Of a DNA stretch of 64,000 nucleotides, positions 13,283 through 64,000 are shown piece by piece. Each line of letters opens with the position of its first letter. Position 1 is the first letter of the stretch. The stretch comes from an uncultured delta proteobacterium (GTDB lineage: Bacteria; Myxococcota_A; Polyangia; Polyangiales; Polyangiaceae). The stretch lies in contig CAWJCS010000002.1 in NCBI GenBank assembly GCA_963841435.1, positions 480,001 to 544,000 on the forward strand. Reading direction: 5' to 3'. The translations under genes were made by a program, and so were the position numbers. The notes below the pieces were generated by a model. That model did no database searches. It was not told the origin of the DNA and saw nothing but the letters and a program-made list of their open reading frames with translations.

Positions 13283-13834
13283 TCAGCCGCGGCAGACGCT
13301 GGGTGCCGCGCACGTGCGCTGCCCGCTCGGCAACGCGGCGCAGCAGCCCCGGCGGCAATCGCCGTCAACGTCGCAGCGCTCCGCGCAGTAGGCGATGCCC
13401 CCTGACACGTCGCGCGGGTCCGAGATGCAAACCCAACCGCTCGAGCAGTCGCTGTCCGAGTCGCAAGGGCCCTCGGGGGTGCGGCAGTAGCGGTCTCCGG
13501 CGGTCCCCGTCACACACGATGCAGCGCCGCAGTCCGAGTCCGTCTCGCAGGCAAACTTGGCAGACGGGCAGTAGAGCGTGCCGCGGTGATCGACGGCGCA
13601 CACGCCGCTCTCGGGGCAACCCTCGGACGATGCGCACATCCCGACGACGCACGTCGGGTGGCCGCTCTGGTCGAGGTCAACGCAGATGGCGTCCGTCGGC
13701 ATGGGATCGCTGCAATCCGCATCCGACTTGCACGGCGGAACCTCGCCGCCGAGCACCGAATCGCCGTCGACGCTGCACCCTGCCGCCAGCCACGCGACCA
13801 CGCCCGCAAGCACCGTGCCGAGTCCTCTGCCCAT
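13283..13834 (-). CDS. Cys-rich repeat lipoprotein
   Basis: LAAGC lipobox; repeated CxxDxDC modules. Confidence 0.75.
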   Translation of the reverse strand: MGRGLGTVLAGVVAWLAAGCSVDGDSVLGGEVPPCKSDADCSDPMPTDAICVDLDQSGHPTCVVGMCASSEGCPESGVCAVDHRGTLYCPSAKFACETDSDCGAASCVTGTAGDRYCRTPEGPCDSDSDCSSGWVCISDPRDVSGGIAYCAERCDVDGDCRRGCCAALPSGQRTCAAPSVCRG

Positions 13835-13997
13835 GGCGCCCAAGCTCTCGCCGGTCGTAGCCGGCGTCAACGACGCCGCGCTCGGCAACGCCTCCGACCC
13901 GTCATCGACGGTGAGAGCTACCGGGCCCGCCCCGGGACCTTCGTCGGGAAGCGTGCAGGTAGTCGAGCTTCTGCGTGAAGCCGGCGAGCGGCGGCCG

Positions 13998-15119
13998 TCA
14001 CGCGGTGCGCTTCTTGTAGCTCCACATCGCGAGGGCGTTGAACACCACGGCGAAGCCGCCCAGCTTGAGCAGCACGGGCGCGAGGTCCCTGAGGGTGCTG
14101 CCCTTGATGTAGACCGCGCGCACGACCGTGATGAGATACGACGGCGGGTTGAAGGCGGCGATATCCTGCGCCCAGCCCGGCATGCTCTCGATCGGCGTGT
14201 ACAGGCCACTCAGCAAGATGAAGATCATCATGATGAAGAACGAGAGCAGCGTGGCCTGCTGCTGGCTCTCGGTGATGGTGCTGATGAACAGCCCGATGCC
14301 CAAAACACCCACCAAGTAGAGAGCCGAGAAGACGTAGAGCGTGAAGAGCGAGCCAAGTGGCCAGAGCCCGAACACGACGAGCGCGACCACGATGCCGATC
14401 GAGATGGACACCATGCCGAGCACCCAGAAGGGGATGAGCTTGCCCAAAATGAACTCGACCTTGCGGATCGGCGTCACGTTGATCTGCTCGATGGTTCCGG
14501 CTTCTTTCTCTTGGACGATGTTGAGCGAGGACAGGAACGCCCCCACCATCGTCACCAGAATCGGCAGCAGGCCAGGAACCATGAACGCCGCGTAGTTGAC
14601 GTGAGGGTTGTACCAGCTGGCGGTCGTGACCTCGATCGTCGGCGCCTGAGGACTCGGCGAGGCAGGCATGGACTCGGCTCCGAGCTCGCCCTGAAACTGC
14701 CGGACCATCGACAGCGCGTAGCTGGTCCCCAGGCCCGCACGCACGCCATTGACCGCGTCGGCAACCAGCTGCAGCGAGGCGTGCCCGGTCGTCGTCAGAT
14801 CGCGCTCGAAATCGTGCGGAATGGTCAGCACGATGTCGGCGCGGCCGTCCTCCATGAGCTGGGTCCCCGTGCGGTAGTCGGGTGGGGCCGCCACGATGCG
14901 GAAGTAGTTGGAGGCCCCGACCTTCTGGATCAGCCGCTGGGAGTCGCTCGAGTGATCCTGGTCCACGATAGCGATCGAGATGTGCTTGACCTCGTAGTCC
15001 GCGGCCAGCGGAATGAGCACGAGCTGCACCACCGGCATGATGAAGATCAGCCGCAAGATGGCTCTGTCACGGAAGATGAGCAAAAACTCCTTCTGCAAGA
15101 GGAAGTAGAGATTGCGCAT
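13998..15119 (-). CDS. ABC-2 type permease (YbhR-like)
   Basis: KEFLLIFRD, WYNP, EKEAGTIEQINVTP, LSGLYTPIESMP. Confidence 0.92.
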   Translation of the reverse strand: MRNLYFLLQKEFLLIFRDRAILRLIFIMPVVQLVLIPLAADYEVKHISIAIVDQDHSSDSQRLIQKVGASNYFRIVAAPPDYRTGTQLMEDGRADIVLTIPHDFERDLTTTGHASLQLVADAVNGVRAGLGTSYALSMVRQFQGELGAESMPASPSPQAPTIEVTTASWYNPHVNYAAFMVPGLLPILVTMVGAFLSSLNIVQEKEAGTIEQINVTPIRKVEFILGKLIPFWVLGMVSISIGIVVALVVFGLWPLGSLFTLYVFSALYLVGVLGIGLFISTITESQQQATLLSFFIMMIFILLSGLYTPIESMPGWAQDIAAFNPPSYLITVVRAVYIKGSTLRDLAPVLLKLGGFAVVFNALAMWSYKKRTA

Positions 15120-15122
15120 GCG

Positions 15123-16271
15123 CTAAAGCCTCTGCTTGAAGGTCCGCCAGGCGATGGCCATCAGCGCCAGCGTCATGCCGGCGAGGACCAGCGTCGGCTC
15201 GATGATGGCCGAAAAACCGAGGTGCTTGATCATCACGCTGCTCGCGATCAGATAGAACCACCTCGTGGGGATGACGTGGCTGATCACCCGCAAGGCGAGG
15301 GGCATGTTCTCGATGGGGAACATGAACCCGCTGAACACCAATGCCGGCATCAATAGGCCCACCAGCGAGACGAACATGGCCGTCTGCTGCTGCTCGACCA
15401 CGTTCGATATCACGAGGCCGAGCGAGAGCGTCGTCACGATGAACAGCAGGCTCTCCGCGACGAGCAGCGGGATATTGGCGCCACGCGGCATGTCCATCAG
15501 GCCATAGGACAAGAGCAGGATGATCAGCACGTCGATCAGGCAGAGCACCAGGTAGGGCACGGCCTTGCCGATGATCAGGCTGAGCGGATGCATGGGTGAG
15601 ACGAGCAGCACCTCCATGGTGCCGCGCTCCTTCTCGCGCACGATCGAGACGGACGTCATCATGGCGCCCAGCAGCATCACGATCAGCGTCATGACGCCCG
15701 GGACGAACATGTAGCTGCTCTTGAGCTGGGGGTTGTAAAGCATGCGAGTTTCGACGTTGATGGCTCCTGCCCGGACCGGAGCCTTCGTCAGGTCCGCCTG
15801 GTACTGACCGACGATGGCCGCCGCGTAGTTGGTGACGGTGCTGGCGGTGTTCGGATCGGAGGCGTCCGCGACCAGACGGATTTGGGCGTGACCGAGGTGC
15901 CTGAGGTCATGGTCGAATTCTGGGAGGAACACCACGGCAAGGCGTGCGTCGCCGCGCCGGAAGCGCTCGCCGACCTCGGCCTCGCTCTTTACATGGCCCG
16001 AGAAGGTGAAATATTTGCTCTCGGCGATGCGGTCGATGAGCCCAATCGTCAACGCGTCGGGCACGCGGTCCAGGACGACGAAGTTGCTGTTCTTGACCTC
16101 GTTCGACAGAGCAAAGCCGAAGAGCGTCATCATGACGACCGGCAGGCCCAGGAGAATGAGCAGGCTCCTCCGGTCGCGCACGACGTGCTTGGCTTCCTTG
16201 AGCACGAAAGCGACGAACATCCGGATCGCGCTGACCCGGTGCTCCGGGCCCTCGGTCGCTTCAGTCGCCAT
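15123..16271 (-). CDS. ABC-2 type permease (YbhS-like)
   Basis: KEAKHVVRDRR, YNPQLKSS..VPG, REKERGTME, SGFMFPIENMP. Confidence 0.92.
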   Translation of the reverse strand: MATEATEGPEHRVSAIRMFVAFVLKEAKHVVRDRRSLLILLGLPVVMMTLFGFALSNEVKNSNFVVLDRVPDALTIGLIDRIAESKYFTFSGHVKSEAEVGERFRRGDARLAVVFLPEFDHDLRHLGHAQIRLVADASDPNTASTVTNYAAAIVGQYQADLTKAPVRAGAINVETRMLYNPQLKSSYMFVPGVMTLIVMLLGAMMTSVSIVREKERGTMEVLLVSPMHPLSLIIGKAVPYLVLCLIDVLIILLLSYGLMDMPRGANIPLLVAESLLFIVTTLSLGLVISNVVEQQQTAMFVSLVGLLMPALVFSGFMFPIENMPLALRVISHVIPTRWFYLIASSVMIKHLGFSAIIEPTLVLAGMTLALMAIAWRTFKQRL

Positions 16272-17004
16272 GGCGCTTCGCCTTTCGTGCCAGCGCGACG
16301 AACACCTCTTCGACCGAGGCCACCCCGTACTCCGCGCACAGCTCGGCGGGCTTTCCCATCGCGGCGATCGCTCCGTCAACCATGATCGACACGCGATCGC
16401 AGTACTCGGCCTCGTCCATGTAGTGAGTCGTCACGAACACGGTTACCCCGCGCGACGACGCCTCGAAGATCATGTCCCAAAACTGTCGCCGCACGATGGG
16501 ATCGACGCCGCCCGTGGGCTCGTCCAAAAAGACCACCTTCGGCTGGTGCACCGTGGCGACCGCGAAGCTGATGCGCTGCTTCCAGCCGAGCGGCAGATCG
16601 TCCACCCGCGTATCGGCGGCCGAGGTCAGCCGCAGCCGCTCGAGGATCTCACTCGTCTTGTCTTTGACCTCCTGGAGCGGCAGCCCGTAGATGCCGGCAA
16701 AGAAGCGGATGTTCTGGCGCACGCTGAGCCTGCCGTAGAGCGAGAACTTCTGGCTCATGTAGCCAATCCGCTTCTTGATCTGCTCGGACTGGGTCATGGC
16801 GTCGAAGCCCGCGACCGTCGCGCGTCCCGAGGTCGGCTCGAGCAGCCCGCAGAAGATCCGCATCGCCGTGGTCTTGCCCGCGCCGTTGGCGCCGAGAAAA
16901 CCGAAGATCTCGCCCGCGGCCACCTGGAGATTGATGGCGTCGACCGCCGTGAACGAGCCGAAGCGGCGCGTCAGGTTCTCGGCCTCGATGACCCACTCAG
17001 TCAT
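16261..17004 (-). CDS. ABC transporter ATP-binding protein
   Basis: Walker A GANGAGKTT, LPLGWKQR, FLDEPTGGVDP. Confidence 0.95.
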   Translation of the reverse strand: MTEWVIEAENLTRRFGSFTAVDAINLQVAAGEIFGFLGANGAGKTTAMRIFCGLLEPTSGRATVAGFDAMTQSEQIKKRIGYMSQKFSLYGRLSVRQNIRFFAGIYGLPLQEVKDKTSEILERLRLTSAADTRVDDLPLGWKQRISFAVATVHQPKVVFLDEPTGGVDPIVRRQFWDMIFEASSRGVTVFVTTHYMDEAEYCDRVSIMVDGAIAAMGKPAELCAEYGVASVEEVFVALARKAKRHGD

Positions 17005-17923
17005 GGGCCTCTCCGTGGATGAGATCGATGAAGACATCTTCCACGTTCGGCTCGATCGCGCGCACCGACGCCGCCTGGTGCCCGAGCCCACGCAGGTAGG
17101 CGAGCACGGCTTCGGGACCTCCGGCGTCGGCCTGGAGCACCAGGTGGTGCTCTCGTCCGAACGCGAAGCAGTAGCGGGTCCCGGGGTAGGCCCGGAGATC
17201 CTTGAGAATCGGAAAGAGTCGATCGCCGCTCACGGCGTAGGTCTCGGTGGCATGGCGCTCGAGCAGCGCGGCCAGCGTGTCGAGCGCGATGATCTTGCCC
17301 TTCTGTACGAGCGCGATCCGGTCGCAGCGCGCCGCCTCGTCCATGTACGGTGTCGAGACGACGATGGTGATGCCGCCTTCGCGCAAGCGTCCGAGCATGC
17401 TCCAGAAGTCCTTGCGCGAGACGGGATCGACGCCGGTGGTCGGCTCGTCCAAAAACAGCACCTTGGGCGCATGAATGAGCGCGCAGCAGAGGGCCAGCTT
17501 CTGCTTCATGCCGCCCGACAGCTTGCCCGCCAGGCGCGTCTTGAACGGCTCGAGCTGCGTGTAGATGTCGGAGACGAGGTGGTAATTGGCCTCGACCGTC
17601 GTGCCGAACACCGTGGCAAAGAACGCCAAATTCTCGGCCACGGACAGATCCTGATAGAGCGAGAAGCGCCCCGGCATGTAGCCGACCAGCGCGCGGATGG
17701 CGCGGAAGTCCTGCACCACGTCGTGCCCGAGCACGCTGGCCCGGCCGCGATCGGCCAAAAGGAGCGTGGTCAGGATGCGGATTAGCGTGGTCTTGCCCGC
17801 ACCGTCCGGGCCGATGAGGCCGAAGATCTCGCCCGGCGCGACCTCGAACGACAGGTCGTCCAACGCCGGCGCGTCGGCGCGCGGGTAGCGCTTGCAGAGA
17901 CGATCGACGACCACGGCCGGCAT
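16997..17923 (-). CDS. ABC transporter ATP-binding protein
   Basis: GPDGAGKTT, LSGGMKQK, FLDEPTTGVDP. Confidence 0.95.
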   Translation of the reverse strand: MPAVVVDRLCKRYPRADAPALDDLSFEVAPGEIFGLIGPDGAGKTTLIRILTTLLLADRGRASVLGHDVVQDFRAIRALVGYMPGRFSLYQDLSVAENLAFFATVFGTTVEANYHLVSDIYTQLEPFKTRLAGKLSGGMKQKLALCCALIHAPKVLFLDEPTTGVDPVSRKDFWSMLGRLREGGITIVVSTPYMDEAARCDRIALVQKGKIIALDTLAALLERHATETYAVSGDRLFPILKDLRAYPGTRYCFAFGREHHLVLQADAGGPEAVLAYLRGLGHQAASVRAIEPNVEDVFIDLIHGEAHD

Positions 17924-17939
17924 CAGTGCACCGCCCTCG

Positions 17940-20233: not shown

Positions 20234-20234
20234 G

Positions 20235-20855: not shown

Positions 20856-20863
20856 GCAAAACT

Positions 20864-20915: not shown

Positions 20916-21019
20916 GTCCCTCGGCTTTTCTGCGCAGTGACGGCGCTACGGACGGTACTGCTGTGGTCGCTAAAAAATGCTGACGCCGCCGTCACGAAAG
21001 TCCGCGCGCTCTACCTGTC

Positions 21020-21082
21020 ATGCACGCCGGGGAGATCGCAGTGCTCGAGTGGTGCGATGTGGACCTCGAGCGACGCATCATG
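21020..21082 (+). pseudogene. Tyrosine recombinase box I shard
   Basis: MHAGEIAVLEWCDVDLERRIM resembles GxRxGExxxLxWxDVDL. Confidence 0.6.
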
Positions 21083-21199
21083 GAAAGGGCAGCCTAGCTT
21101 CGCCGGCGGCACCGCGTTTCGGTGTGATTCGTTGAACCAAAAACGACGGCGCGTGGCCTGGCTTGCCAGGGTGGAAGAATGGGAGTAGCCCTTGATTTC

Positions 21200-22606: not shown

Positions 22607-22652
22607 AAGGGGCGCTGACGGCTCGCTCACGGCGGTCTACGCTGAGGGTCGT

Positions 22653-25920: not shown

Positions 25921-25929
25921 GGGAATCAT

Positions 25930-26215
25930 GTGGGGCCAGGCCATTCCGCCCGCGGGTGCATTCGTCGCGGTCGCGGCCGGCACGGTTCACTCGTGCGCCG
26001 TGCGAGTGAACGGCGACGTCGCGTGTCGGGGGGCTGGGAAGACGAACGGCGACTGCTCGGCGAGCCTGGACGCGTGCGGCATGTCCGTCGCCCCGGCGGG
26101 CCCGTTCGTCGAGGTCGCGGTGGGGTACACGAACTCCTGCGGGATGCTGACGGACGGCAGCGTCGCGTGTTGGGGTTCGAATTCGAACGATCGCTCGACG
26201 CCGCCCGCCGGGCCG
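25930..26215 (+). pseudogene. RCC1-like repeat protein 3' fragment
   Basis: FVAVAAGTVHSCAVRVNGDVAC, FVEVAVGYTNSCGMLTDGSVACWGSN. Confidence 0.75.
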
Positions 26216-26273
26216 ATTCTGACGAGCGCGCGAAGCGCCACCTCAACGCTGGACAGCGCCACCAGGCCGCTCG

Positions 26274-26341
26274 TGACGCCGACCCGAGCGGACGTTGAGG
26301 ACACTGCGCGCCGCACAGCAGCCGGTATCGAGAAACTCCTC
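26274..26341 (+). mobile_element. 68-bp probable IS91-family transposase shard, copy 1
   Basis: TPTRADVEDTARRTAAGIEKLL; 60/68 nt identical to 63258-63325. Confidence 0.6.
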
Positions 26342-26519
26342 AGCGCAACTGACCAGGGGCCAGACGGCCCCGCCGTCGCGCTTGATACCCGTCGCGCACC
26401 CTGCGCTCGGTTTCGGAGAGGACGTGCGCTCCAGGCCGATCGTTACGCGCGCCCACGATTTTTTTCGAAGACGTGCCGCGGGGCTACGGCGCGCTCGCGC
26501 GGAGCTCCGCGACCTTGCC

Positions 26520-30997: not shown

Positions 30998-31595
30998 CAG
31001 TGGTGGGGGCGCGCCGAAAGGTGCGCCCCCACTGCTCTGGGCGAACCGCCGGGTTGCACCGCGTCTGCCGACGCGAATGACTCCCGGCGGCTCCGCAGAT
31101 TAGGAGGTACGCGTGAAATCGTCAGCCTGCGGGAGCAAGAGCTTCGTGCAGAGCGAAAGCGAGGGAGCGGGCGACGGGCGGCTCCGGCGGAACGGCGGGT
31201 ACGGGGACGGGCGGCCGCGCTGGCGAAGCCGCGGGCGGCACCGGTGGCTCGGTGTCGATCCGAAGGATTGCGCCCCGTAGTCCCCACGAGGGACTCGCGA
31301 CGAGCTCTCGCCCGACGGCGCCACGCTCCTTGCCCCCGAGGTGGCGTTCGACACCGCCGACTGGTCGCCGCTCACGAGTGTCGAACCGCCCGCGACCGAC
31401 GCGCGATAGCGAACGAAGTTCGCATCGTTCACGACGCCAACAGAAATTCGGCGGCACGGCCGCACTGAAACGGGGGTGGGACGAAAATGAGCCAGCGCGT
31501 GACGGGCGCCCCGTGGCCGCGCGGAGGACGCTCCTGACCCAGTGGAAATCAAGCCGATCGGCGAATGGCTTGGAACTTGCACCTCTCGCTCGGTC

Positions 31596-40536: not shown

Positions 40537-41059
40537 TCGCGCGAGGCGGCGGGCAGCGGCTTATGCTCCGCCGCCGGCCGCGGCTTCCGACCAGGAGCGC
40601 GTCGCGCTCAGCGAGCATGACCCGCATGGTCTTCGTGAAGAGCTCGACGCACCTGGCCCGCTAGCATGAATCCCCCGCGCGCACCCCCAGACCAATCCCG
40701 CCAGTCTCGACTGCGGCGGCATTGACCTGAGCAAGGGAACGAGCTGGATCTCCCTCACTTGCACGGGGGCCGCGCTCTTCGTCTGCGAATCGCCGTAACG
40801 AGAGCGCGCCTGCGCGTCGATGCCTTGGCCTGCTGCAGGCCGGGAAAGTCCTCCGAGCAACTGGCCGCACCTTCGGGCCGGAGGCGGACGACGCTCCGCG
40901 GCCCCGGGGCGATTCACGGTGCCGCCGACGAAAAGGCCAGTCGAGCGGATGGCCGTGAGGCCGAGCTCGTCGCTGGTCGCTCGTGGGGTCGCGGCAAAGC
41001 GGTCGTTGACGGAGATGACCTCGGTGTGAGCCCGCGTCGAGCAGCGAGCAGGTCCAGTG

Positions 41060-41674: not shown

Positions 41675-41935
41675 ATGGTACCCGACCGGGCCGCCCGGCG
41701 CCAAAGTTCGCCCGCAGCGCTGCTCGTCGAGCTGATCGGGAACTCCACGGCACTCGCTGCTTGGAGGGACATCACGCCCTTGGCGCGCAACGAGTTCATC
41801 TGCTGGGTCGAGGATGCGAAGCAAGAGATGACGCGAAGGCGCCGCATTCGCAGGACCCAGGAGGAGCTGGAAGAAGGCCAGCGCCGGCCCTGCTGCTGGC
41901 CTGGGTGCAAGCACCGCGAGCGCACGGGTGGGTGA
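41675..41935 (+). pseudogene. YdeI/OmpD-associated family protein, 5' end likely replaced
   Basis: AWRDITPLARNEFICWVEDAKQ..TR.RRI....EEL..G.RRPCCWPGC; back-to-back with the 41668 start, leaving no promoter space. Confidence 0.7.
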
Positions 41936-48736: not shown

Positions 48737-48913
48737 GGCGACCATTCCACGCCCGCCCTCTTCCCAGTTCATTTTTCCCCTGGCGTTCGCGCCAAGGGGT
48801 TTCGCGGTCACGGGGCGGTGCAGGTGTGGCAACTGCTGTCGCCGACGCAGCCGTCGCACGAGCCGGCATCGCAGGCACCCTGATCGCACTCGAAAACGCC
48901 GCGGCGCCCGCGA

Positions 48914-48965
48914 GGGCGTTTGCGGAGTCGCCTCGATGAACCAGGGAGCTTGCGACGATGAATAC
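48914..48965 (+). repeat. Orphan copy of the 29201-29252 leader
   Basis: 50/52 identity; homology stops 8 nt into the ORF start. Confidence 0.9.
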
Positions 48966-52344: not shown

Positions 52345-53058
52345 GCGCGCGCTCGCGTCGGCCTCTGAGCCCGCGCTCGCCGGCCAGCCTTGCGGTTGCA
52401 CGTGAGAGTCCTTCCAGTGAACGTCAGAATGGCTCCGGCTGCGCCGACCCATCCAGGTTCAACCAAGCGTCCCGGCACGCGACACGGTTCCCCGTTGACT
52501 CCGTCGAAACGTCCTTCGTCACGAGCGGCTGCAGCGCGATGCTGTCCACCAGAATCTCCCCGGTGTCCGCTTTGACCGTAAGCGTCGGTCGATCATCGGC
52601 GGTCAGCATGTCGGAAGTCCGTGGCGAGTAGCTGATCTTGGCGAACAAGCGAAGTGTCGTCGGAACGACCACCGTGCTCGACGAAAAGGCCCGACTACCA
52701 GGAGGCACGTTCGGCAGGTGGGTGCACGTGGTGACGGCCAGGTGCCCCGATAACCTCGCGTGAAGGTCACCATCGACAAGCTCGACGAGCGCCTCGCCGC
52801 GCACGCTCCTTTGCTCCCGAGCTCGCTCGATGTGCCGAGCTTCCTCGAAGGCCCCATCACCGAGCGCCGCATGAACCTGCGTGATCTCGCGCAACAGCAA
52901 CAGCAGTAGGCGCCCGCGCCGAGAGCCGGCACGGTCGTCGAAGGCGGAGCGAGCGGCGGCGTGGCTCGCTCCGGTGGCTGAAAAGCGCACCACCACCGGC
53001 GGGGAGCTCCCGCGCCCGTTGACCTTGGGCGGCGGAGCCTCTATCGTGGTGTGTCACG

Positions 53059-54815: not shown

Positions 54816-55314
54816 ATGGACGAAACACGCTGCGATGAGGGTTTCAGTCCTACTGCTGGGCAATCGCGGCGCTCGCGAGCGGTTGTGGCAGCACGGACGA
54901 CGGCTCGATGGCTCTTGCACTGGCCCCCGATCGTCGCCGCCTCTTGGCTCGTCGCATGCGCAGCGACTCCTCGGCCGCCCGCGCCGACAGCTGCTGAACC
55001 CAAACCTGCCGCGGCTGGGCCCACGTGTCCGTCAGCGACCGCTGCCGTGGCGCCGCATGTTGCGTACGTGCCGCGTCCGCTAGCCACTGCGTCGGTGACG
55101 CTGCCGTCCCTTCCGCGTTTGCCGGAGCGACCGATCCGCGTCCACGGCGAGTATACGGTCTGGGGCGCAAGCTACTTCTTGCGAAACCGATTCGAGAAAC
55201 CGAGCGTCGCCTCGCGTTCGATCGATGTCCTGGGTTTCATCGTAGCGACCAATCTCGATCACGCCCCGCGCTGCGCCGTGCACGCTCGGGGATCGCGGAT
55301 CCGCCCGGCTGCAC
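54816..55314 (+). pseudogene. Lipoprotein 5' fragment truncated by an integrase shard
   Basis: LVAC lipobox; YTVWGASY.LR..G.IV.TNL..AP.CAVH, then frameshift and abrupt switch. Confidence 0.55.
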
Positions 55315-55485
55315 CGCGACACCTTCTGCTCCCACCTGGCCATGCGGGGCGCGGCGCCGAAGGCCATCCAGGAGCTGGTCGGTCACAGCACGCTCACCAT
55401 GACGCTGAGGTACATGCACCTGGCGCCGAGCGCGCTGCGAGAAGCGATCGGACTTCTCGATCTTGGGCAACAGATGGGCAACGCG
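55315..55485 (+). mobile_element. Tyrosine integrase C-terminal (box II) shard
   Basis: RDTFCSHLAMRGAAPKAIQELVGHSTLTMTLRYMHLAP with catalytic His and Tyr. Confidence 0.85.
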
Positions 55486-55752
55486 GCGAGCGTGTGCGCT
55501 GCCGCCAGTCGGAGCGTTGGCTCGGCGGGGTTCATCTCCGCTCGGGTCGGCCTCGAGGCTCCAACTCGAACGTGACGCGAAGCGACGTTGCTCCCTTGCA
55601 TGCCGGCCACGCCTGCTCCAGGGGCTCTCTACTGTCCTCCGTGGCGAACGGGCTCGAGGGGCAGGCGAGCCGAAACACGACAGGCCCTTTACCGCACCGA
55701 GCGCGCGTGCTGCAGTCCCTCGCTTCCTCAGCCGGCAGAACGGAGACCTCCC

Positions 55753-56227: not shown

Positions 56228-56942
56228 TGTCGGTAGCGGCGGCGCGGGGACCGCGGCCGCAGGAGGTCGCGGCGCCCCCTCGACCGCTGGTTCCGAGGCT
56301 TCCGGGGGGGAAGCGGCAGGAACACCGAAACTCAGGCCGGTGCCCCGTCCTCCGGCGACGCGCCTTGCACCGGACCCGAGCTTTGCAACGGCCAGGACGA
56401 CGATTGCGATCCCGCGACAGCCGACGGCTCCGCGGAGCCCACGCTCGGAGAGCCCTGCGACGGCCCAGACCGGGACTTCTGCAAAGAGGGCACGATCGTT
56501 TGTGCCAACGGAGCGCTCTCCTGCACGGACGACAGCTCGTCGACGCCGGAAGTGTGTGGCGCTCAGGGCGTCGACGAGGACTGCGACGGGCTCGTCAACG
56601 TCAACGCGGGCGACACGGATCCGGTCTGTGCCAGCGAAGCGCAAGACCTTGGCTCCGTCTCGGGAGACACCGGCGCCGAGCACAGAGTCAGGACCGGGAT
56701 GGAGGAGGCCTTCTACCTCGCCACCGTCACGGAGAACCGTAATCCACAGCCTGGACGGGCACTCCGACCAGGTGGGAGTCACCTACAGCCCGAACGACCC
56801 CATGGTCCAGGAGGATCAGGACGTTATGCTGTACGTGGTGCTGCACCAGTCCACCCAATGTGCGGCCTGGACGTTGACGGCCGATGGAAACCTCAACCTG
56901 TCGAGCGTCAACGCGGTCTACGCGATCCCGACCTGGCCGTAA
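56228..56942 (+). pseudogene. MopE-like metal-binding-repeat secreted protein remnant
   Basis: Gly linker, ELCNGQDDDCD, EVC...VDEDCDG; no start or signal peptide; frame changes near 56330 and 56740. Confidence 0.65.
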
Positions 56943-57820: not shown

Positions 57821-57907
57821 ATGAGGTCGAACCGCGCCGCGGTCATGAAGGTGGACACGCCATTGTGCAGGAGGTTCGCGAAATCGGTGGCGCTGATCAG
57901 GGCTCGC

Positions 57908-58267
57908 CGGCCTGTGGCTTCTGGAAAACGTGACGCCTCCCGTTCTCGCTAGGATGAAGCGGAACTGGGACAAGACGTTGCGTCCCGCCAACGCTGAGAT
58001 GAAATTTGCACCAAGCGACGGGCTCGGGTTCTTTGAAGCGCATGGCTGGATGCCGTCCGTCGAGAAATCGCTCCTCGACGAGGCCGAGCGCTTGGGTCGG
58101 GAGATGCGGCTGGTGACTGCGCTCCGGTCGTTGTCGCGCTTCATCCCTCCGCTCAGCGCCGCCTATGCCCGCCGCCAGGAGAGGTTCCGCGACGCGGTCG
58201 TGTACGCCCTCTTGGAGCGCGCGGAAGGTCGTGGCGGACCGCCGAGCTGACCCTCCTCGAATCGTCG
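57908..58267 (+). repeat. 360-bp direct repeat, copy 1 (3' end of the methyltransferase gene plus 17 nt)
   Basis: Appears identical to 59352-59711 (offset 1444). Confidence 0.97.
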
Positions 58268-58492
58268 GAATATCGTCGGCACCCGCTCCCAACGAGCCCC
58301 AACGCCGCCGTTGACACGCTTGCTGGATCCTCTACGGTAGCGCTCGGGCTCTCCCCGAGCCCGGGATCTCGCGGGTCTTTCCCGGCACGACCAGAGCGAG
58401 GGCGAAGAGGGCTCAGCCCTTCGGGTTCGCGGTTGTCGTTCTCCTTCGATTTCGAGCCCTGCGCCGGGGCGGGGTCATCATCGAGGAGAGTC

Positions 58493-58798
58493 ATGGCGAA
58501 CCGGCACAGTCACAAGAAGCTCCGGGCGGAGATCCGCGCAAGAATGGCCTCGACGGGCGAGGGCTATCAGGCGGCGCACCGCCGAATCCTCGCCCAGCGA
58601 AGCACCGCCCGTCGAATCGAACGCGCGGGCGTCCCCGAGCTGATCGCGACGACCTACTTCGGCGTGCCGATCACCGTCGCCGCCTACGAGATCCTGTCCC
58701 ACGTTCGCCTCATTCTCGTGTCCGGCTCTGGTGGACCCATGGGTCTGCCTTGGAGCAGCGCATCGCCCCTCCTCGTTCACTCGGACGGCGTGCAATGA
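58493..58798 (+). CDS. Small hypothetical protein with N-terminal RARMxxTGExYxxA motif
   Basis: GAGGAG RBS; ATGA overlap with the methyltransferase. Confidence 0.65.
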   Translation: MANRHSHKKLRAEIRARMASTGEGYQAAHRRILAQRSTARRIERAGVPELIATTYFGVPITVAAYEILSHVRLILVSGSGGPMGLPWSSASPLLVHSDGVQ

Positions 58799-59694: not shown

Positions 59695-59711
59695 CCCTCC
59701 TCGAATCGTCG
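59352..59711 (+). repeat. 360-bp direct repeat, copy 2
   Basis: Matches 57908-58267. Confidence 0.97.
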
Positions 59712-59778
59712 CCAAACTGGAACCCCGAAGACGGAGTCTGAGCACCCCCCCAAGCGCTCGAAGCCGCTCGGCCAAGGT

Positions 59779-59806
59779 GTGTGGGTTCGACTCCCTCCTC
59801 GTGCAC
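59779..59806 (+). other. tRNA 3'-end fragment (att-like remnant)
   Basis: GTGGG-TTCGACT-CCCTC T-arm followed by CTCGTGCA; no matching 5' acceptor strand upstream. Confidence 0.55.
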
Positions 59807-60018
59807 TCGCGCGGGCAGCTCGAGCTGCCGCTCGTTCGGTGAGTCGGCCAGCGCAGCGGCCTCGGCGGGCGTATGCGCTGCGTTCGGCAACCAGCCCGCA
59901 GAGGCGGGGTTCACCGACGATGCGTCCCCGCCGTTTTCCCAGTTCGATTTCCCTTTGGCGCCTGGCGCCGCAGCTTCCGTCGTGATCACGCCCAAGTAGT
60001 CGCGACCGTCGGGTGCAA

Positions 60019-61344
60019 TCATTGGAACTGGGTGAAAAACTTCCACACCTCGCCTTTGGTCCAGGTCTTGGCGCCGTCGTCGCCGCCGCCGTCGACGTTG
60101 CCGGGCGTGTGACCGCCGTCGAAGGCGCACCATTCGACGGGATAGCCGGCCCTGCAGCCTTGATAGCTGGTGCAGACGTGCATCCCGCTGCCGGCGCTCG
60201 GCTCCGGCGGGTTCATGGCGGTGCAGCCGTCGTTCATCACGAACTTGTCGCGCATCGAGCGCCCGCCGGAGATGTTGAGCGTGCCGTCGCTGATACCGTG
60301 AATGCCGATGTAGGCGATGGGCTGAGTGCCGCCATCGCACCCGCTGATCACCCCGCCCGAGTAGACCGCGACTCCGCGGAAGACAGTGGCTCGCGCGCAC
60401 GCGATTGCGTAGCTCATGGAGCCGCCGTAGCTGAAGCCCATGGCGAAGAGCCGCGTCGTGTCCACGCACAGATCGCCTTCGATCAGCGCTATCATGTCAT
60501 CGGTGAACTTCACGTCTGCGCCGCCGGAATTGCCCCAGCCGTTGCTGATACCCTGCGGAGCGACGAAGATGGTGCTGTCGCCCGCCTGGGCCCTCATCCC
60601 GTAATACGACCAGGCGGCTCCAGTGCTGCCGCCGCCGTCGACGTCCTGCATCGTGCCGCCCACCCAGTGGTAAGCGAAGATCAAGCGATGGGGTAGATTG
60701 TTGTCGTAGTTATCGGGGATGCGAAGGATGTAGCTGCGGCTCTGCCCGCCGGTCTGAATGGTTTTGCTTCCGCTCGTGAGGGTCGCAGCCTTGCCGCATC
60801 CAGGACTCCGCATCGCCATGCCCGAGCCGGCGCTGCCCGCCGCGCCGCCCGCGCCACTGGCACCCGCGCGCCCTCCCATTCCACCGGCTCCCGGCCCGCC
60901 GCTGCTTCCCGAAACGGCGCCGCTCCCGCCGTTTCCGCCTTGCCCCGCTTGGGCGCCCGCGCTTCCGCCGACGCCCGAAGTGCCCCCCTTGCCGGCCGCA
61001 CCGCCCGTTCCCGCCGCACCGGCAGAGCCACCCGTTGCGCCTGAGCCCGCTGTTCCACCTGAGCCCGCTGTTCCACCTGAGCCCGCTGTTCCACCTGAGC
61101 CCGCTGTTCCACCTGAGCCGCCGGCAGCCGTCGTCCCGCCCGAGCCGGCGGCTGTGCCGCCTGAGCCGTCTTGCCCGCTTGTGCCGCCGGATCCCGCGGG
61201 GCCGCCTGCCCCACCTGGGGTGCCCCCGGGACCACCCGCAGCGCTAGAACCGCCAGCACCCATGATACCGGTCGGGTCGTTTGACGAGCAGGCGCCTGCG
61301 ACGAAGGCAAGCGCCGCAACCGATGATCGCAAGCAACTTCTCAT
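60019..61344 (-). CDS. Serine esterase (LpqP / CE1 feruloyl esterase-like) lipoprotein with Gly-rich linker
   Basis: AGAC, SPGCGK, LCVDTTRLFAMGFSYGG, HGISD, WCAFDGGH. Confidence 0.9.
   Translation of the reverse strand: MRSCLRSSVAALAFVAGACSSNDPTGIMGAGGSSAAGGPGGTPGGAGGPAGSGGTSGQDGSGGTAAGSGGTTAAGGSGGTAGSGGTAGSGGTAGSGGTAGSGATGGSAGAAGTGGAAGKGGTSGVGGSAGAQAGQGGNGGSGAVSGSSGGPGAGGMGGRAGASGAGGAAGSAGSGMAMRSPGCGKAATLTSGSKTIQTGGQSRSYILRIPDNYDNNLPHRLIFAYHWVGGTMQDVDGGGSTGAAWSYYGMRAQAGDSTIFVAPQGISNGWGNSGGADVKFTDDMIALIEGDLCVDTTRLFAMGFSYGGSMSYAIACARATVFRGVAVYSGGVISGCDGGTQPIAYIGIHGISDGTLNISGGRSMRDKFVMNDGCTAMNPPEPSAGSGMHVCTSYQGCRAGYPVEWCAFDGGHTPGNVDGGGDDGAKTWTKGEVWKFFTQFQ
61040..61119 (-). repeat. Perfect 18-bp tandem repeat x4+ encoding SGGTAG
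   Basis: cctgagcccgctgttcca units on the + strand. Confidence 0.95.
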
Positions 61345-61764
61345 CGGGAACTCACGTGAGAGCTACACGCTGATCTCCGAAAAAACGGGTCAGAATGTTG
61401 CAGATTTTCGAGGCCGATCCCTGCAACACGAGGTCCGGGCAACGACTCGTCCGTTCCCGCGCGAAAGTTTGCAATATGCTGCACGATCTACGGACGCCGT
61501 CCGAAGCCGAGGTACGCGGTCGTCTCGAGCTCGGTGGGCCCCTGGATGTGTTCCGAGAGGAAGGTGTCGGGCTCCTGTACTTTGGCGGCGTGCACGCCGG
61601 CCGCGTTCGGGACGCGCACCCAAATCCCAGACCGATGCCTGTCCGCGTCGGGTTCGCGGCCGTGCTCTTCGCAGCAGGCGTCGCGGGTTCGGGCGAATGG
61701 GCGGCGTTGCTACGCTCTCAGGGTGTCCGCCTTGCGCGATTTGGCGCCTCTCTGACGGAACCGC

Positions 61765-62643
61765 TCACTTTTGAAACGCCCGCATCTTCTCGAGGAATTC
61801 GTCCTTGGAGACCACCGGGGACATGTGACCGCCGGGCAATTCGACGACGCTGACGTTCGCGAGCGCCGCAGCAAGCGCGTCGATGATCGCGGCATTGTAG
61901 TGATCGGTGCCCGTGCCTTTGACGAGCATGACCGGCATCGAAAGGCGGCGCAGTCGCGAAACGTCGTCACGATGTCGGAAAATGGCGATCGAGGCGCGCA
62001 ACGCGTCGCGGTGCTGGTTCCAGACCGACCAGCGAGGATGCTGCCGGGGTGGCTGATCCGGTCCGAGCAAATCCGTCATGAAGGCGGCAAGCTCGTCCTC
62101 GGTCACACCGTCGGCCCATCGCAACGCAGACTCTTCGGTCTTGCGAACCTCGGGGTCGGCTCGCCCGTAGTCGGGCAGTAGCCAAGCAGCATCGGGCTCC
62201 ACCAGCAACAGCGACCGAATTCGTTCAGGATGGTCGAGGGCGAAATCCAGCGCGATGAGGCCACCATAAGACCAGCCCACGACGTTGACGGGCTCCCTCC
62301 ACCCGAGGTCGGTCAGCGCCGCGGCGAGCGCGCGGCTTTCCAGTTTCACCGAATAGTCAACCGGTAGCGAAGCGTGCGCCAGGCCGAGCTCGACGCCGAG
62401 TGGTTGCGCCAGCGCTACCTGGCGTTCGGACGCCAGCTCATTCGCGTGTGGGACCCACGAAAGAACGCCGGTCAAACCTTGGCCCACGATGACGAGCGGT
62501 CGCCCCTGGCCGAGCACGCGCATTTGCATCTTGACCACTGACGCCTCCTTCGCTGCGGCGGCTGAGCTCGTGCGTCCGTTGTGAGCAGCGCAGGCAATCG
62601 GCGCCACGCTCACGAGCCAAAGCCAGGTCCTTGCGGTCCCCAT
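61765..62643 (-). CDS. Alpha/beta hydrolase, probably a lipoprotein
   Basis: PIAC, VGWSYGG, HPERIRSLLLVEP, LPGGHM. Confidence 0.88.
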   Translation of the reverse strand: MGTARTWLWLVSVAPIACAAHNGRTSSAAAAKEASVVKMQMRVLGQGRPLVIVGQGLTGVLSWVPHANELASERQVALAQPLGVELGLAHASLPVDYSVKLESRALAAALTDLGWREPVNVVGWSYGGLIALDFALDHPERIRSLLLVEPDAAWLLPDYGRADPEVRKTEESALRWADGVTEDELAAFMTDLLGPDQPPRQHPRWSVWNQHRDALRASIAIFRHRDDVSRLRRLSMPVMLVKGTGTDHYNAAIIDALAAALANVSVVELPGGHMSPVVSKDEFLEKMRAFQK

Positions 62644-62761
62644 TCTTCGTAAATAAGACTACTTCATTGCCGGCGGGGATTCGAGGAGTCGTTGCTGCTT
62701 CAAGCACCCGCCGAGTCCGGGGTCGGCGTCGAGAGCGCCTGAAAAACGAAGTGCCAGCCAG

Positions 62762-62885
62762 GTCGTCAACGGCCGTGACCGGCGACAGCTCGAGCGGTTG
62801 TGCCGCTACATCACACGGCCTCCCGTTGCTCAGGATCGCCTCCAGCGAGCCCGACGACCTGATGGTCCGGCTCGTCGCCAGCCGT
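62762..62885 (+). mobile_element. IS91-family (Y2 HUH) transposase shard
   Basis: GRDRRQLERLCRYITRPPVAQDRL, then PDDLMVRLV after an apparent internal deletion. Confidence 0.8.
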
Positions 62886-63257
62886 TTTCCCGGTTCGTTC
62901 TTCCTTGCCGCCCAGGTTGGGGTGCCGGAGCCGACCGGGTTTCACCCGACGCGGCCCATGAGACCGAGCGCTCGGGTATCGGCACACAGAAAGCCGAGTG
63001 TCCGTACTCTGTCCTTGGTGCCTCACTGAGCGATGCACGCGTCCTGCATCGCGCGCCAGAATCGTCTGCGCGATGGCCTCCGCTCCCGCAGCGCTCGGAA
63101 GGATGCCGCTCGCATCCGTGAACGCCGAGAGGTGGTCGGCGCAGGTGGGGCGAAGATCGACGAGATGGCAAGGAACCGGGCTCCGCGCCGACGAAGACGT
63201 CGGCTCCCCCGACGCGCGGGGTAGCTGCAACCGGTCGCGCCCGCTAGCGTGCGCTCT

Positions 63258-63325
63258 TGACGCCGACCCGAGCGGGCGTCGAGGACGTGGCGCGCCGCAC
63301 GGCAGCCGGTATCGAGAAGATCCTC
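63258..63325 (+). mobile_element. 68-bp probable IS91-family transposase shard, copy 2
   Basis: TPTRAGVEDVARRTAAGIEKIL; matches 26274-26341. Confidence 0.6.
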
Positions 63326-63471
63326 CGACCACGCAACCGTGCTCCACATCGCTCCTGTGTTCGGAGCCGCGACACCCGCCCACCTGCAGTCCCCTCCAAT
63401 CCTGCCCCCGGGCTTCCTCTCGGTTTTCGCGGTTCGATTTTCTTATGCGCACCGTATTCTGTGCGTTGGCC

Positions 63472-64000
63472 TCAACCTATCTCCTCCAGGAGATCGACCA
63501 GTGACGGCGTCCAATGGCTCCCGCCAACGAGAACCTTCGCAGAAAGCTTTTCCGAGCACTTCTCGTGCGGAGCCAGCATGCGGGTTGCACAGAACTGGTA
63601 CTCCCAATTGGCGGTCACCGGGTGCATGCACGCAGCGAGCACCTCGAACTGCTCGGCTGAGTAGTACCGACTACAGGCATCGTTGATCGACGCGCGAGTC
63701 TTCTGAAAGTCAACGCGCGGCGGATCGATCGCGCGCCGTACATTCTTGCACTCGATCCTAAACGGTTAACGCTTGTATGAGATCTGAAAATCAGGTGGAC
63801 CATCCTGGTCAAGGGCCTGTACGTCCTCAATCCCGGACAGTGCGGACAGGTGCTTGGCGAGGTGGTGCTCCGCAACGCGCCCGCGAACCGCGACGACTAG
63901 CCTCCCCGTTCCGGCCAAGACATCAAGTAGCTCTCGCGCGGATAGGCCCAGCTCCCGCTCGAGGCCATGGGTAGCGTTGGGCTCCGGAGCGCCAAGCTCG
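63472..64000 (-). pseudogene. PD-(D/E)XK nuclease (restriction-endonuclease-like), 5' part beyond the window, in-frame TAA at 63766-63768
   Basis: Manual translation: ..VRGRVAEHHL..DQDGPPDFQISYKR*PFRIECKNVRR..VDFQKTRAS..SRYY...FEVLAACMHP..; not in the ORF track. Confidence 0.75.

What the first reader, a model, noticed from the sequence alone, without database searches (positions are those of the whole stretch)
13834..64000. Gene-shard patchwork: most intergenic gaps contain 40-700 bp fragments of unrelated genes
Seen by manual translation: integrase box I (21020) and box II (55315), RCC1 (25930), IS91-like (26274, 62762, 63258), hydrolase C-terminus (26520), YdeI (41675), receptor-L-like tail (46647), Cys-rich tail (48808), methyltransferase N-terminus (49262), lipoprotein N-termini (31128, 54816), MopE-like (56228), a probable methyltransferase-like tail (61488), SGNH-like tail (63050-63180) and a tRNA 3' end (59779). 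Junctions are abrupt and both strands are used. Intact genes between them are mostly stand-alone secreted lipoproteins. Inference: a high-turnover zone where single surface-protein genes arrive with pieces of their former neighbours, or are trimmed by repeated deletion. I saw no shared attC-like site, so it is not a classical integron; rolling-circle (IS91) capture or microhomology joining are candidates.
Basis: partly seen in the sequence, partly recalled or inferred. Interest (0 to 1): 0.72.

Follow-up and report, generated by a model that had tools for sequence, protein, structure and literature searches.

The report
Decaying mobile-DNA island with gene scraps
This stretch of an uncultured soil myxobacterium's chromosome is a worn-down dumping ground for mobile DNA, where lipoprotein genes sit among broken scraps of transposase, integrase, tRNA and other genes; it is a fairly ordinary kind of genomic island and one of several in this genome.

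Summary
These are RCC1, three IS91 scraps, integrase box II, YdeI/OmdA, the SGNH/DUF459 tail and the tRNA 3' end. Six found no support. I found about ten further pieces.

The patchwork starts at about 20.9 kb, not 13.8 kb, and runs past the window to two tRNA-Ser genes at about +77 kb.

Enrichment is moderate.
- The 50-kb chunk has 18 short repeats of at least 80% identity, against a genome median of 4. That ranks 3rd of 159.
- In a protein-level control it ties for 5th of 39.
- About a dozen similar islands exist in this genome.

Best reading (0.6): an eroded accretion zone of mobile DNA. It holds remnants of IS91-family elements, tyrosine integrases and a tRNA-Leu att scrap. It was cut down by deletions that leave 1-4 nt of microhomology. 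The loci that look like donors are mostly other such islands.

It is not an integron. One-ended IS91 capture is not supported: five left ends have five different flanks.

No reads could be obtained, so the junctions remain unconfirmed.

The parts
20984..21094 (+). Integrase box-I-like scrap. It is a 37-aa open piece, and the catalytic Arg position reads His.
   Evidence: BLASTP E 3e-5 to residues 282-302 of an integrase of this genome. No Pfam hit. Weak.
25943..26230 (+). RCC1-repeat fragment with no start codon context.
   Evidence: PF13540 E 4.1e-10. 38% identity to the RCC1 protein at C4:111651-112928.
26268..26350 (+). IS91-family transposase scrap, aa 230-256.
   Evidence: tblastn 78%, E 8e-7. 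88% nt to 63252-63325.
31125..31257 (-). Piece of an ORF like C5:827523-828800, with a 131-bp internal deletion at 31171|31172.
   Evidence: 96% and 86% nt. Positions in the donor. The junction lies in a Gly-rich repeat.
40841..40906 (+). IS91-family transposase scrap, aa 251-270.
   Evidence: tblastn 80%, E 7e-5. blastn 83-85%.
41711..41878 (+). YdeI/OmdA C-terminal domain inside a doubtful 292-aa ORF.
   Evidence: PF13376 E 4.7e-13. The codon signal is coding-like only at 41681-41800.
48760..48815 (+). Degenerate IS91 end motif, then GTTC, then a partial inverted copy of the motif. It lies 24 bp after the stop of lipoprotein gene 48203-48736.
   Evidence: Motif scan. Sequence read directly.
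48914..48965 (+). Copy of the 5' leader and first three codons of gene 29245-29916. Similarity stops right after ATGAATAC.
   Evidence: 96% over 52 nt. Sequence context.
52427..52669 (-). C-terminal 81 codons like those of a 233-aa protein at C3:1013484-1014185.
   Evidence: blastp 58%, E 2e-21. The donor has no Pfam domain.
52667..52755 (+). Internal 30-codon piece (aa 396-425) of a 669-aa protein that has copies in two other IS91-rich islands.
   Evidence: 85-87% nt and 90-96% aa to C5:355263-357272 and C6:193994-196000.
52756..52905 (+). Last ~48 codons plus the stop of a transglutaminase-like gene. It abuts the previous piece with at most 2 nt of overlap.
   Evidence: 86% nt and 91% aa to C5:1325051-1326025. 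The donor has Transglut_core. Junction shown.
55065..55295 (+). Internal piece like aa 169-246 of a 374-aa protein at C6:482454-483578.
   Evidence: blastp 42%, E 3e-15.
55315..55461 (+). Tyrosine-integrase C-terminus (box II region).
   Evidence: PF00589 E 3.5e-7. BLASTP E 2e-9.
55485..55562 (+). Scrap like the stretch between the transposase stop and the right end of an IS91 copy at C5:843.7 kb.
   Evidence: 82% nt to C5:843751-843828. Position relative to that copy.
56360..56671 (+). MopE-like Cys-rich repeat fragment in an open frame with no upstream start codon.
   Evidence: E 5.7e-8 to repeats of large proteins in 10 of 30 genus genomes. PF11617 E 0.008.
57908..58267 (+). Exact 360-bp copy of 59352-59711. 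That is the 3' third of the LCM methyltransferase gene plus 17 bp.
   Evidence: 100% identity. Boundaries shown.
58241..58312 (+). Stretch like C3:1145188-1145259, the far edge of a ~7-kb island at tRNA-Leu on contig 3.
   Evidence: 90% nt.
59773..59807 (+). 3' end of a tRNA-Leu(TAG)-like gene, an att-type scrap.
   Evidence: 91% to C3:1152213-1152247 and 95% to C3:1145072-1145109. tRNA list. No whole tRNA in the window.
59808..59961 (+). IS91 right-end remnant: the last codons of the transposase, the 3' region and the 26-bp end motif.
   Evidence: 82-83% to three copies on contig 5. End motif.
59962..60309 (.). 3' end of the intact esterase gene 60019-61344(-). Its 99% twin at C2:48907-49254 is a truncated scrap.
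62753..62911 (+). IS91 deletion derivative: transposase aa 335-366, then aa 390-401, then the end motif. The junctions show about 1-4 nt of microhomology.
63022..63183 (-). C-terminal tail of a DUF459/SGNH-type hydrolase.
   Evidence: 77% nt and 66% aa to C5:934555-935730. The donor has DUF459.
63188..63450 (+). 263-bp unit running from a terminal palindrome to an IS91 end motif, with transposase aa 230-254 inside. A second copy lies 7.2 kb downstream, beyond the window.
   Evidence: 99% to C2:550421-550682, with different flanks on both sides.

Best explanation
Window 20.9-64 kb belongs to a roughly 56-kb accessory island. It lies between a conserved efflux operon and two tRNA-Ser genes followed by IMPDH, about 13 kb past the window's end.

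The island is an accretion and decay zone. Integrative elements and a distant subfamily of IS91/ISCR-type rolling-circle insertion sequences inserted there repeatedly, bringing accessory genes that are mostly lipoprotein genes. Illegitimate deletions then trimmed them. These deletions used 1-4 nt of microhomology, by replication slippage or Ku-dependent end joining.

What remains is intact lipoprotein genes separated by 35-360-bp remnants of transposase, integrase, att-tRNA and cargo genes. The same mobile families sit in about a dozen other islands of this genome. The remnants therefore still match those islands at 77-100% identity, and the matching loci look like donors.

Shown: the fragments, the island's edges, the IS91 ends, the small junction overlaps and the island-to-island matching. 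Inferred: the order of events, and that deletion rather than copying made most of the shards.
For: ISLAND LIMITS
- Codon-typical coding density is 0.69, 0.68, 0.68, 0.49, 0.68 and 0.55 in the six 10-kb bins from 20 to 80 kb, against 0.85-0.92 in the bins on either side.
- tRNA-Ser genes lie at C2:557088-557377. IMPDH follows them.
- The operon at 13998-20861 is syntenic with G004:C1:203236-210015, and nothing else nearby is.

MOBILE REMNANTS
- The transposase gives 49 tblastn HSPs genome-wide, and only two are full length.
- A full element at C5:365456-367372 is bounded by a 26-bp inverted motif.
- The window holds three clear end motifs and one degenerate one.
- It also holds two integrase scraps and a tRNA-Leu 3' scrap.

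DECAY
- Fragments carry internal deletions relative to their intact relatives, at 31171|31172, about 62846 and 62885|62886. The overlaps are about 1-4 nt.
- Beyond the window there is a GH2 gene broken into three frame pieces and a DNA methylase matching only profile positions 58-322 of 324, so truncated at its N-terminus.
- The PA14 gene appears to need a frameshift.

LINK TO IS91
- 20-kb bins holding an IS91 fragment have density 0.667 (n = 21), against 0.846 for the rest. Mann-Whitney p = 1.7e-11.
- 21 of 71 strictly defined gene-derived intergenic shards lie within 10 kb of an IS91 fragment. Only 11.8% of intergenic bases do.

ISLAND-TO-ISLAND MATCHING
- 7 of 13 nucleotide-level partner loci lie in the lowest 6% of local coding density, and 10 of 13 in the lowest 15%.
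- Among 457 repeat pairs of at least 90% identity and at most 400 bp, both partners lie in the low-density tenth of the genome in 172.

OTHER
- Repeat lengths at 95% identity or more run continuously from 30 bp to 5 kb. That fits erosion of larger duplicates.
- Ku is encoded in the genome.
Against: - No reads could be laid, so no junction is independently confirmed.
- No flanking direct repeat of the tRNA-Ser 3' end was found in the island.
- No intact integrase gene was found among the 61 window ORFs scanned; only scraps are present.
- G+C is not atypical: 0.64-0.70 against 0.687 for the genome.
- Some partner loci are ordinary, dense chromosome. The transglutaminase gene is at the 86th percentile of local density. 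A 72-bp piece of the intact, syntenic TetR gene sits at C2:846787-846858 at 94% identity. Pure erosion would need a lost second copy in each case.
- Three pieces abut within 480 bp at 52427-52905, and four at C2:48821-49365. Copying could explain that as well as several deletions could.
- The protein-level control shows only modest enrichment: 5 gaps with a hit, against a control median of 2.
- My gene map is a home-made codon model, not a standard gene caller.
Confidence: 0.6

Rival explanations
1. Active capture by IS91-family rolling-circle elements, as Helitrons do. Mis-termination or template switching during rolling-circle transposition would copy short pieces of whatever lies nearby and spread them as small mosaic units.
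For: - IS91 scraps and ends sit at or next to several junctions (59961|59962, 62885|62886, 63450).
- A 263-bp unit runs from a terminal palindrome to an exact end motif. It exists in two 99% copies with different flanks on both sides.
- By my hand tally of about 40 loci merged from the 49 HSPs, 11 transposase fragments reach the C-terminus (the side of the right end) and only 2-3 reach the N-terminus. Premature termination of a rolling circle that starts at the right end would give that bias.
- IS91 members mis-terminate in 1-14% of events (PMC13181058, passages).
Against: - 0 of 5 left-end copies share an outer flank.
- No flank next to an end motif shows a consistent GTTC/CTTG target.
- Most shards are not next to an IS91 end.
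- The C-terminal bias could be a detection bias, because I used a single query.
- The microhomology at IS91-internal junctions looks like ordinary deletion.
Confidence: 0.17
2. Filler DNA from break repair. Double-strand breaks in these islands would be sealed by Ku/LigD end joining, or by annealing of stray single strands at replication forks (SPDIR-like). Either route would insert short templated copies of other loci.
For: - Ku is present.
- Junction overlaps are 1-4 nt.
- Short pieces from unrelated loci abut directly at 52427-52905 and at C2:48821-49365.
- A 72-bp copy of an intact core TetR gene sits in a distant island.
- SPDIR is described in Acinetobacter baylyi (10.1101/2023.11.22.568220, start of the abstract in the search listing).
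Against: - Many pieces are 150-360 bp. From recall, that is much longer than reported SPDIR patches.
- Pieces carry their own internal deletions.
- Partner loci are mostly other islands, not random genome.
- Two of the four pieces at C2:48821-49365 come from one locus with a 280-bp gap between them, which is a simple deletion.
Confidence: 0.13
3. Assembly artefact. The genome looks like a metagenome-assembled genome, and the junctions would be chimeric joins.
For: - The genome has 6 contigs, 95% completeness and 2.7% contamination, and its relatives are nearly all MAGs.
- There is an exact 360-bp direct repeat 1.4 kb apart.
- No reads were available.
Against: - Shards are 77-97% identical to their partners, not 100% identical. 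They are diverged copies, not mis-joined reads.
- The same kind of patchwork occurs in about a dozen regions and tracks IS91 remnants.
- Contigs are megabase-sized.
- Truncated Y2_Tnp matches also occur in independently assembled relatives.
Confidence: 0.05

Closest known systems
tRNA-linked genomic islands and decayed mobile-element accretion zones
   Same: The region lies next to tRNA genes and is not syntenic in the relatives searched. It holds integrase and IS remnants, an att-type tRNA 3' scrap, truncated cargo genes, pseudogenes and low coding density.
   Different: It has no intact integrase among the ORFs scanned, no flanking repeat of the adjacent tRNA-Ser, and no G+C deviation. The remnants are unusually small (35-360 bp) and several abut one another. 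The intact genes are mostly lipoproteins.
IS91 / ISCR (ISVsa3-type) rolling-circle insertion sequences and the complex regions they build by one-ended transposition
   Same: The transposase has the Y2_Tnp and Zn_Tnp_IS91 domains. Its nearest annotated plasmid relative is an 'IS91-like element ISVsa3 family transposase'. Fragments of unrelated genes are found close to the element's remains.
   Different: Identity to ISVsa3-type transposases is only 34%. The full copy has a 26-bp terminal inverted motif, whereas IS91 members are described as having two distinct ends and no terminal inverted repeats (PMC13181058, passages). No consistent tetranucleotide target was seen. No copies share a captured flank.
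Helitron gene-fragment capture in eukaryotes
   Same: Helitrons use a related HUH rolling-circle transposase and create patchworks of short fragments of unrelated genes on both strands (PMC4778049, start of the abstract in the search listing).
   Different: Here the fragments are not shown to lie inside bounded, multi-copy elements. Only one small unit (263 bp, two copies) behaves like a mobile mosaic.
Integron cassette arrays
   Same: Both are runs of single, stand-alone genes.
   Different: There is no intI and no attI. No attC-like shared repeat lies between the genes. Genes are on both strands and the gaps are large.

Membership tests
IS91 family insertion sequence (the element whose scraps litter the window) | HUH/Y2-type transposase with an N-terminal zinc-binding domain. 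| tested here: met
   The full copy at C5:365568-367160 has PF04986 (E 4.5e-22) and PF14319 (E 2.1e-16). It is 34% identical over 89% of its length to ISVsa3-type transposases.
IS91 family insertion sequence (the element whose scraps litter the window) | HUH motif and catalytic tyrosine(s). | tested here: inconclusive
   The protein printed contains an H-L-H triplet and one R-Y-I-T-R stretch. I made no alignment to characterised members. Which residues are catalytic rests on recall.
IS91 family insertion sequence (the element whose scraps litter the window) | Two functionally distinct ends (oriIS, terIS) instead of terminal inverted repeats, and a tetranucleotide target next to oriIS. | tested here: not met
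   Both ends of the full copy carry the same 26-bp motif in inverted orientation. The flanks outside about 20 end motifs show no common GTTC/CTTG. The feature itself is as stated in PMC13181058 (passages).
ISCR-type complex region / one-ended capture | Captured DNA lies contiguous with the terIS side and is co-mobilised, so copies share the IS plus its flank. | tested here: not met
   Five left-end copies have five different outer flanks. No clear left end lies in the window.
tRNA-linked genomic island | Lies next to the 3' end of a tRNA gene. | tested here: met
   Two tRNA-Ser genes lie on the minus strand at C2:557088-557377, with their 3' ends facing the island.
tRNA-linked genomic island | Flanking direct repeat of the tRNA 3' end, and an integrase gene. 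| tested here: not met
   No copy of 16 nt or more of either tRNA-Ser lies in C2:500-557 kb. Only two integrase scraps are present. A tRNA-Leu scrap is present instead.
tRNA-linked genomic island | Absent or variable in related genomes. | tested here: met
   With window 20001-40000 as query, only scattered single-gene matches on different contigs were found in 20 relatives. In G004 the flanking operon is syntenic and the island is not. All relatives are different species, so this is a weak test.
tRNA-linked genomic island | Atypical base composition. | tested here: not met
   G+C is 0.64-0.70 across the region, against 0.687 for the genome.
Integron | An intI integrase, attI, and attC sites between cassettes. 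| tested here: not met
   No shared inverted or direct repeat family lies between the genes. All large families are Gly/Ser-rich coding repeats. There is no intact tyrosine recombinase.

The most novel reading that the evidence does not exclude
In these Polyangiaceae, an IS91/ISCR-like rolling-circle transposon family with inverted ends would act as a bacterial counterpart of Helitrons. Rolling circles that start at the right end would often stop early or switch template. They would shed copies truncated but still anchored at the right end, together with small mosaic units such as the 263-bp hairpin-to-end unit. These would carry 40-350-bp pieces of unrelated genes. On this reading the shard patchwork is actively written by copying and is not only a residue of deletion.
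Probability: 0.12. Interest if true: 0.7.

Novelty: new member of a known kind. Interest (0 to 1): 0.3.

Why it matters
The region gives a worked example of how the accessory parts of a large myxobacterial genome turn over. Lipoprotein genes survive while the vehicles that brought them are shredded to pieces of tens to hundreds of bases.

Two practical points follow. First, about a third of this stretch is non-genic debris, and it can be mis-called as small genes or chimeric ORFs. Examples are the 207-aa ORF at 48808-49431 and the 190-aa ORF at 52424-52996. Second, the genome holds a distant IS91/ISCR-like subfamily with inverted ends that is worth describing.

If the copying model were right, it would extend Helitron-style capture of gene fragments to bacteria.

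Tried and rejected
- READS. The look-up of sequencing runs listed no run for window 52501-62500, so read laying was not used and the junctions stay unconfirmed.
- CLOSE STRAINS. A scan of metagenome contigs with the LCM methyltransferase found only relatives at 27-33% identity. No ancestral state of any junction could be seen.
- SYNTENY. Relatives in the genus share at most about 77% nt identity. Only the efflux operon was syntenic in the 80 kb of G004 that I compared, so the island's edges rest on coding density and the tRNA/IMPDH landmark.
- RNA. Rfam gave 0 matches at gathering score. ARAGORN found no whole tRNA in the window or at C3:1144500-1146000.
- PROTEIN FAMILIES. NCBIfam added nothing for 25 pieces and ORFs, apart from an sll1863-family hit for gene 33709-34197.
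- FAILED OR MISAIMED CALLS. It was replaced by blastp against this genome's own ORFs. One search used the wrong frame for box I and was repeated correctly.
- STEP DROPPED. I dropped a relaxed-threshold local search of the six unsupported shards. Their status rests on the family and genome searches listed above.
- INTEGRON READING. Rejected.
- ONE-ENDED IS91 CAPTURE. Rejected as the main source of shards.
- LITERATURE. Searches for IS91 plus myxobacteria (6 papers hold both terms, 5 listed; none of the titles and abstract starts listed concerns this) and for IS91 with Helitron gene capture turned up no description of such a patchwork in myxobacteria. That is only as good as those two searches.
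- EARLIER NOTES. Earlier notes of this scan held nothing on this place or topic.

Full report
CONTEXT

The window is G000:C2:480001-544000 of a 7.78-Mb genome in 6 contigs with 68.7% G+C. The nearest IMPDH genes, at 80-85% aa identity, come from MAGs labelled Polyangiaceae. The organism is therefore an uncultured myxobacterium of that family. Earlier notes of this scan also called it a myxobacterium.

No gene caller was available. I trained a codon log-odds model on this genome's long ORFs, plotted the best frame along the window, and annotated the candidates with Pfam.

GENE MAP

Positions 13998-20855 hold an ordinary minus-strand operon: two ABC-2 permeases, two ABC ATPases, HlyD, an outer-membrane factor and TetR. 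It is syntenic with G004:C1:203236-210015 at 68-84% aa identity. The finding's start at 13834 is therefore too early.

From 21.2 kb onward there are single genes on both strands:
- an FG-GAP protein and two 2OG-Fe(II) oxygenases;
- a PA14 protein;
- three paralogous S9/PHB-depolymerase-like esterases;
- a Ser/Thr kinase;
- OmpA and DUF4398 proteins;
- a Spondin_N protein and a DUF5122 propeller;
- a hybrid histidine kinase;
- a Recep_L protein, HU, an LCM methyltransferase and an alpha/beta hydrolase.

17 of the 30 ORFs listed begin with a signal peptide and a lipobox cysteine, read by eye.

ARE THE SHARDS THERE?

I compared the window with the whole genome at nucleotide level. I compared six-frame pieces of 22 hand-defined gaps with this genome's own ORFs. 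I scanned 229 gap pieces of at least 40 aa, plus a few extra ORFs, against Pfam, and scanned the partner genes as well.

11 of the 17 named shards are supported.
- Firmly (8): RCC1, three IS91 scraps, integrase box II, YdeI/OmdA, the SGNH/DUF459 tail and the 3' end of a tRNA-Leu(TAG).
- Weakly (3): integrase box I, the MopE-like repeats and the piece at 31125-31257.
- Not supported (6): no library or genome search gave a match.

- a fourth transposase scrap at 40841-40906;
- three abutting pieces at 52427-52905, which are the C-terminus of a 233-aa protein on the minus strand, 30 internal codons of a 669-aa protein, and the last ~48 codons of a transglutaminase-like gene;
- an exact 360-bp copy of the 3' end of the methyltransferase gene;
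- a copied 5' leader;
- four IS91 end motifs.

IS IT MORE THAN CHANCE, AND IS IT SPECIAL?

I cut the genome into 159 chunks of 50 kb and counted short non-self repeats (35-400 bp, at least 80% identity) that lie outside long repeats. The median is 4, the 90th percentile is 10 and the maximum is 20. The chunk covering window 20-70 kb has 18, third of 159, and has no long repeat at all.

Codon-typical coding density is 0.49-0.69 per 10 kb from 20 to 80 kb, against 0.85-0.92 on both sides.

A protein-level control is more sober. I ran the same automatic pipeline on 38 other chunks.
- The target has 5 of 32 gaps with a match elsewhere in the genome. The control median is 2, the mean 2.9 and the maximum 15.
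- The target ties for 5th of 39.
- It has 17,650 bp of gap, second of 39. From the table I work out a control median of about 8,100 bp.

The patchwork is therefore real and enriched, but it is one of roughly a dozen such regions and not a singular object.

WHAT THE REGION IS

The patchwork continues past the window to about +70.7 kb. The low-density zone ends at two tRNA-Ser genes (C2:557088-557377, minus strand, 3' ends facing the zone) followed by IMPDH.

Between 64 and 77 kb lie an N-terminally truncated C5-DNA methylase, a glycosylase, a GH2 gene in three frame pieces and more IS91 remains.

Relatives in the genus are at most about 77% identical in nucleotides. They show only scattered single-gene matches on different contigs.

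THE IS91 ELEMENTS

The IS91-type transposase gives 49 tblastn HSPs across the genome, and only two are full length. The full copy has the Y2_Tnp and Zn_Tnp_IS91 domains. It is 34% identical to ISVsa3-type (ISCR-like) transposases on plasmids.

That copy, C5:365456-367372, is bounded by the same 26-bp motif in inverted orientation. About 46 copies of the motif with at most 7 mismatches occur genome-wide. This differs from the description of IS91 members as having two distinct ends without terminal inverted repeats (PMC13181058, passages read with 'find').

In the window, end motifs lie at 48760-48784 (degenerate), 59935-59961, 62886-62911 and 63425-63450. All are on the plus strand, and each is followed by an abrupt change of sequence.

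MECHANISM

Where a fragment can be compared with an intact relative, it shows internal deletions with small overlaps.
- 31171|31172: a 131-bp deletion in a Gly-rich repeat.
- About 62846: transposase aa 367-389 are lost, with about 1-4 nt of overlap.
- 62885|62886: transposase aa 401 is joined to the end motif through CGCC.
- 52755|52756: the junction overlaps by at most 2 nt.

At C2:48821-49365, four pieces of 45, 45, 348 and 112 bp abut with 1-3 nt of overlap. Two of them come from one locus and are separated there by 280 bp, which is a plain deletion. The 348-bp piece is a truncated twin of the window's esterase 3' end, cut off by an IS91 scrap. The genome encodes Ku.

Two genome-wide associations point the same way.
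- 20-kb bins with an IS91 fragment have coding density 0.667 (21 bins), against 0.846 for the rest. Mann-Whitney p = 1.7e-11.
- 21 of 71 strictly defined shards lie within 10 kb of an IS91 fragment, where 11.8% would be expected.

The partner loci are mostly other islands.
- 7 of 13 lie in the lowest 6% of local density, and 10 of 13 in the lowest 15%.
- In 172 of 457 short repeat pairs of at least 90% identity, both partners lie in the low-density tenth of the genome.

I therefore read most shards as the shared leftovers of related mobile DNA that has been deleted differently at each site.

AGAINST THE RIVALS

One-ended IS91 transposition mobilises DNA beyond the left (terIS) end (PMC13181058, passages). 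The five left-end copies have five different outer flanks, and the window has no clear left end. I found no support for that route.

Three things keep a copying model alive.
- A 263-bp unit runs from a terminal palindrome to an exact end motif. It is present twice at 99% identity with different flanks on both sides.
- By my hand tally of about 40 loci merged, 11 transposase fragments reach the C-terminus and 2-3 reach the N-terminus.
- Pieces of apparently single-copy core genes turn up elsewhere. A 72-bp piece of TetR lies at C2:846787 at 94% identity, and a transglutaminase tail lies in the window.

An integron is excluded, because there is no attC-like repeat family and no intI.

An assembly artefact is unlikely. 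The shards are diverged copies at 77-97% identity, not exact ones, and truncated Y2_Tnp matches also occur in independently assembled relatives. I could not check reads.

LIMITS
- The gene map and the 'coding density' come from a home-made codon model. Foreign codon usage would also lower that density.
- The gap tallies (11 of 15 gaps of at least 300 bp with a supported fragment) and the tally of transposase fragments are hand counts.
- The relatives are different species, so lack of synteny is weak evidence.
- Of the papers cited, I read passages of PMC13181058. For PMC4778049 and 10.1101/2023.11.22.568220 I saw only the start of the abstract in the search listings. Statements about ISCR complex regions and SPDIR patch sizes are recalled.

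VERDICT

The object is a decayed mobile-DNA island rich in lipoprotein genes, which is a known kind of thing. A distant IS91/ISCR-like element family is the most interesting component.

Noticed in passing
window 19466-19468 (within 18926-20233, minus strand): The outer-membrane factor gene of the otherwise intact, syntenic efflux operon has one in-frame stop, after '...APSSLR'. It splits the gene into pieces of 255 and 180 codons. This is either a pseudogene or a sequencing error.
   Followed up: partly
window 24049-25263: The PA14 lipoprotein gene seems to need a frameshift near 24400-24520. The signal peptide and lipobox are in the frame of ORF 24049-25263, while the PA14 domain and the codon signal after 24520 are in the frame of ORF 24089-25201.
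   Followed up: partly
G000, e.g. C1:162178-162380 and at least 14 other loci; none in the window: A ~205-bp element with ~18-bp terminal inverted repeats occurs in at least 15 copies at 95% identity or more. It looks like a MITE unrelated to IS91.
   Followed up: no
L025 6906-9513 (window +70.9 to +73.5 kb): A GH2 beta-galactosidase-like gene is split into three ORFs in different frames. It is a pseudogene inside the same island.
   Followed up: no
C2:556757-557087 (window +76.8 to +77.1 kb): An IS91 left-end motif lies about 300 bp from the tRNA-Ser genes. Between them is a degenerate stretch that starts like a tRNA-Ser 5' end and later holds a T-arm-like GGTTCGAATCC.
   Followed up: no
G000 genome-wide: IS91 transposase fragments are biased toward the C-terminal side, next to the right end. 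By hand tally, 11 reach the C-terminus and 2-3 reach the N-terminus. The short stretch aa 230-270 recurs alone at six loci.
   Followed up: partly
window 27650-28966, 46842-48140, 60019-61344: Three paralogous lipoprotein esterases (S9/PHB-depolymerase-like) carry long Gly/Ser/Thr-rich linkers after the lipobox. These linkers cause many low-identity repeat hits that are not shards.
   Followed up: no
C2:48821-49365: A second small mosaic lies 450 kb away. Four abutting pieces of 45, 45, 348 and 112 bp, each 89-99% identical to a different locus, overlap by 1-3 nt.
   Followed up: partly
window 39865-40536: A 223-aa ORF has a DUF6496 match (E 9.6e-6) only at residues ~75-110. The real gene is probably a small Lys-rich protein, and the long upstream part of the ORF is spurious.
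   Followed up: no
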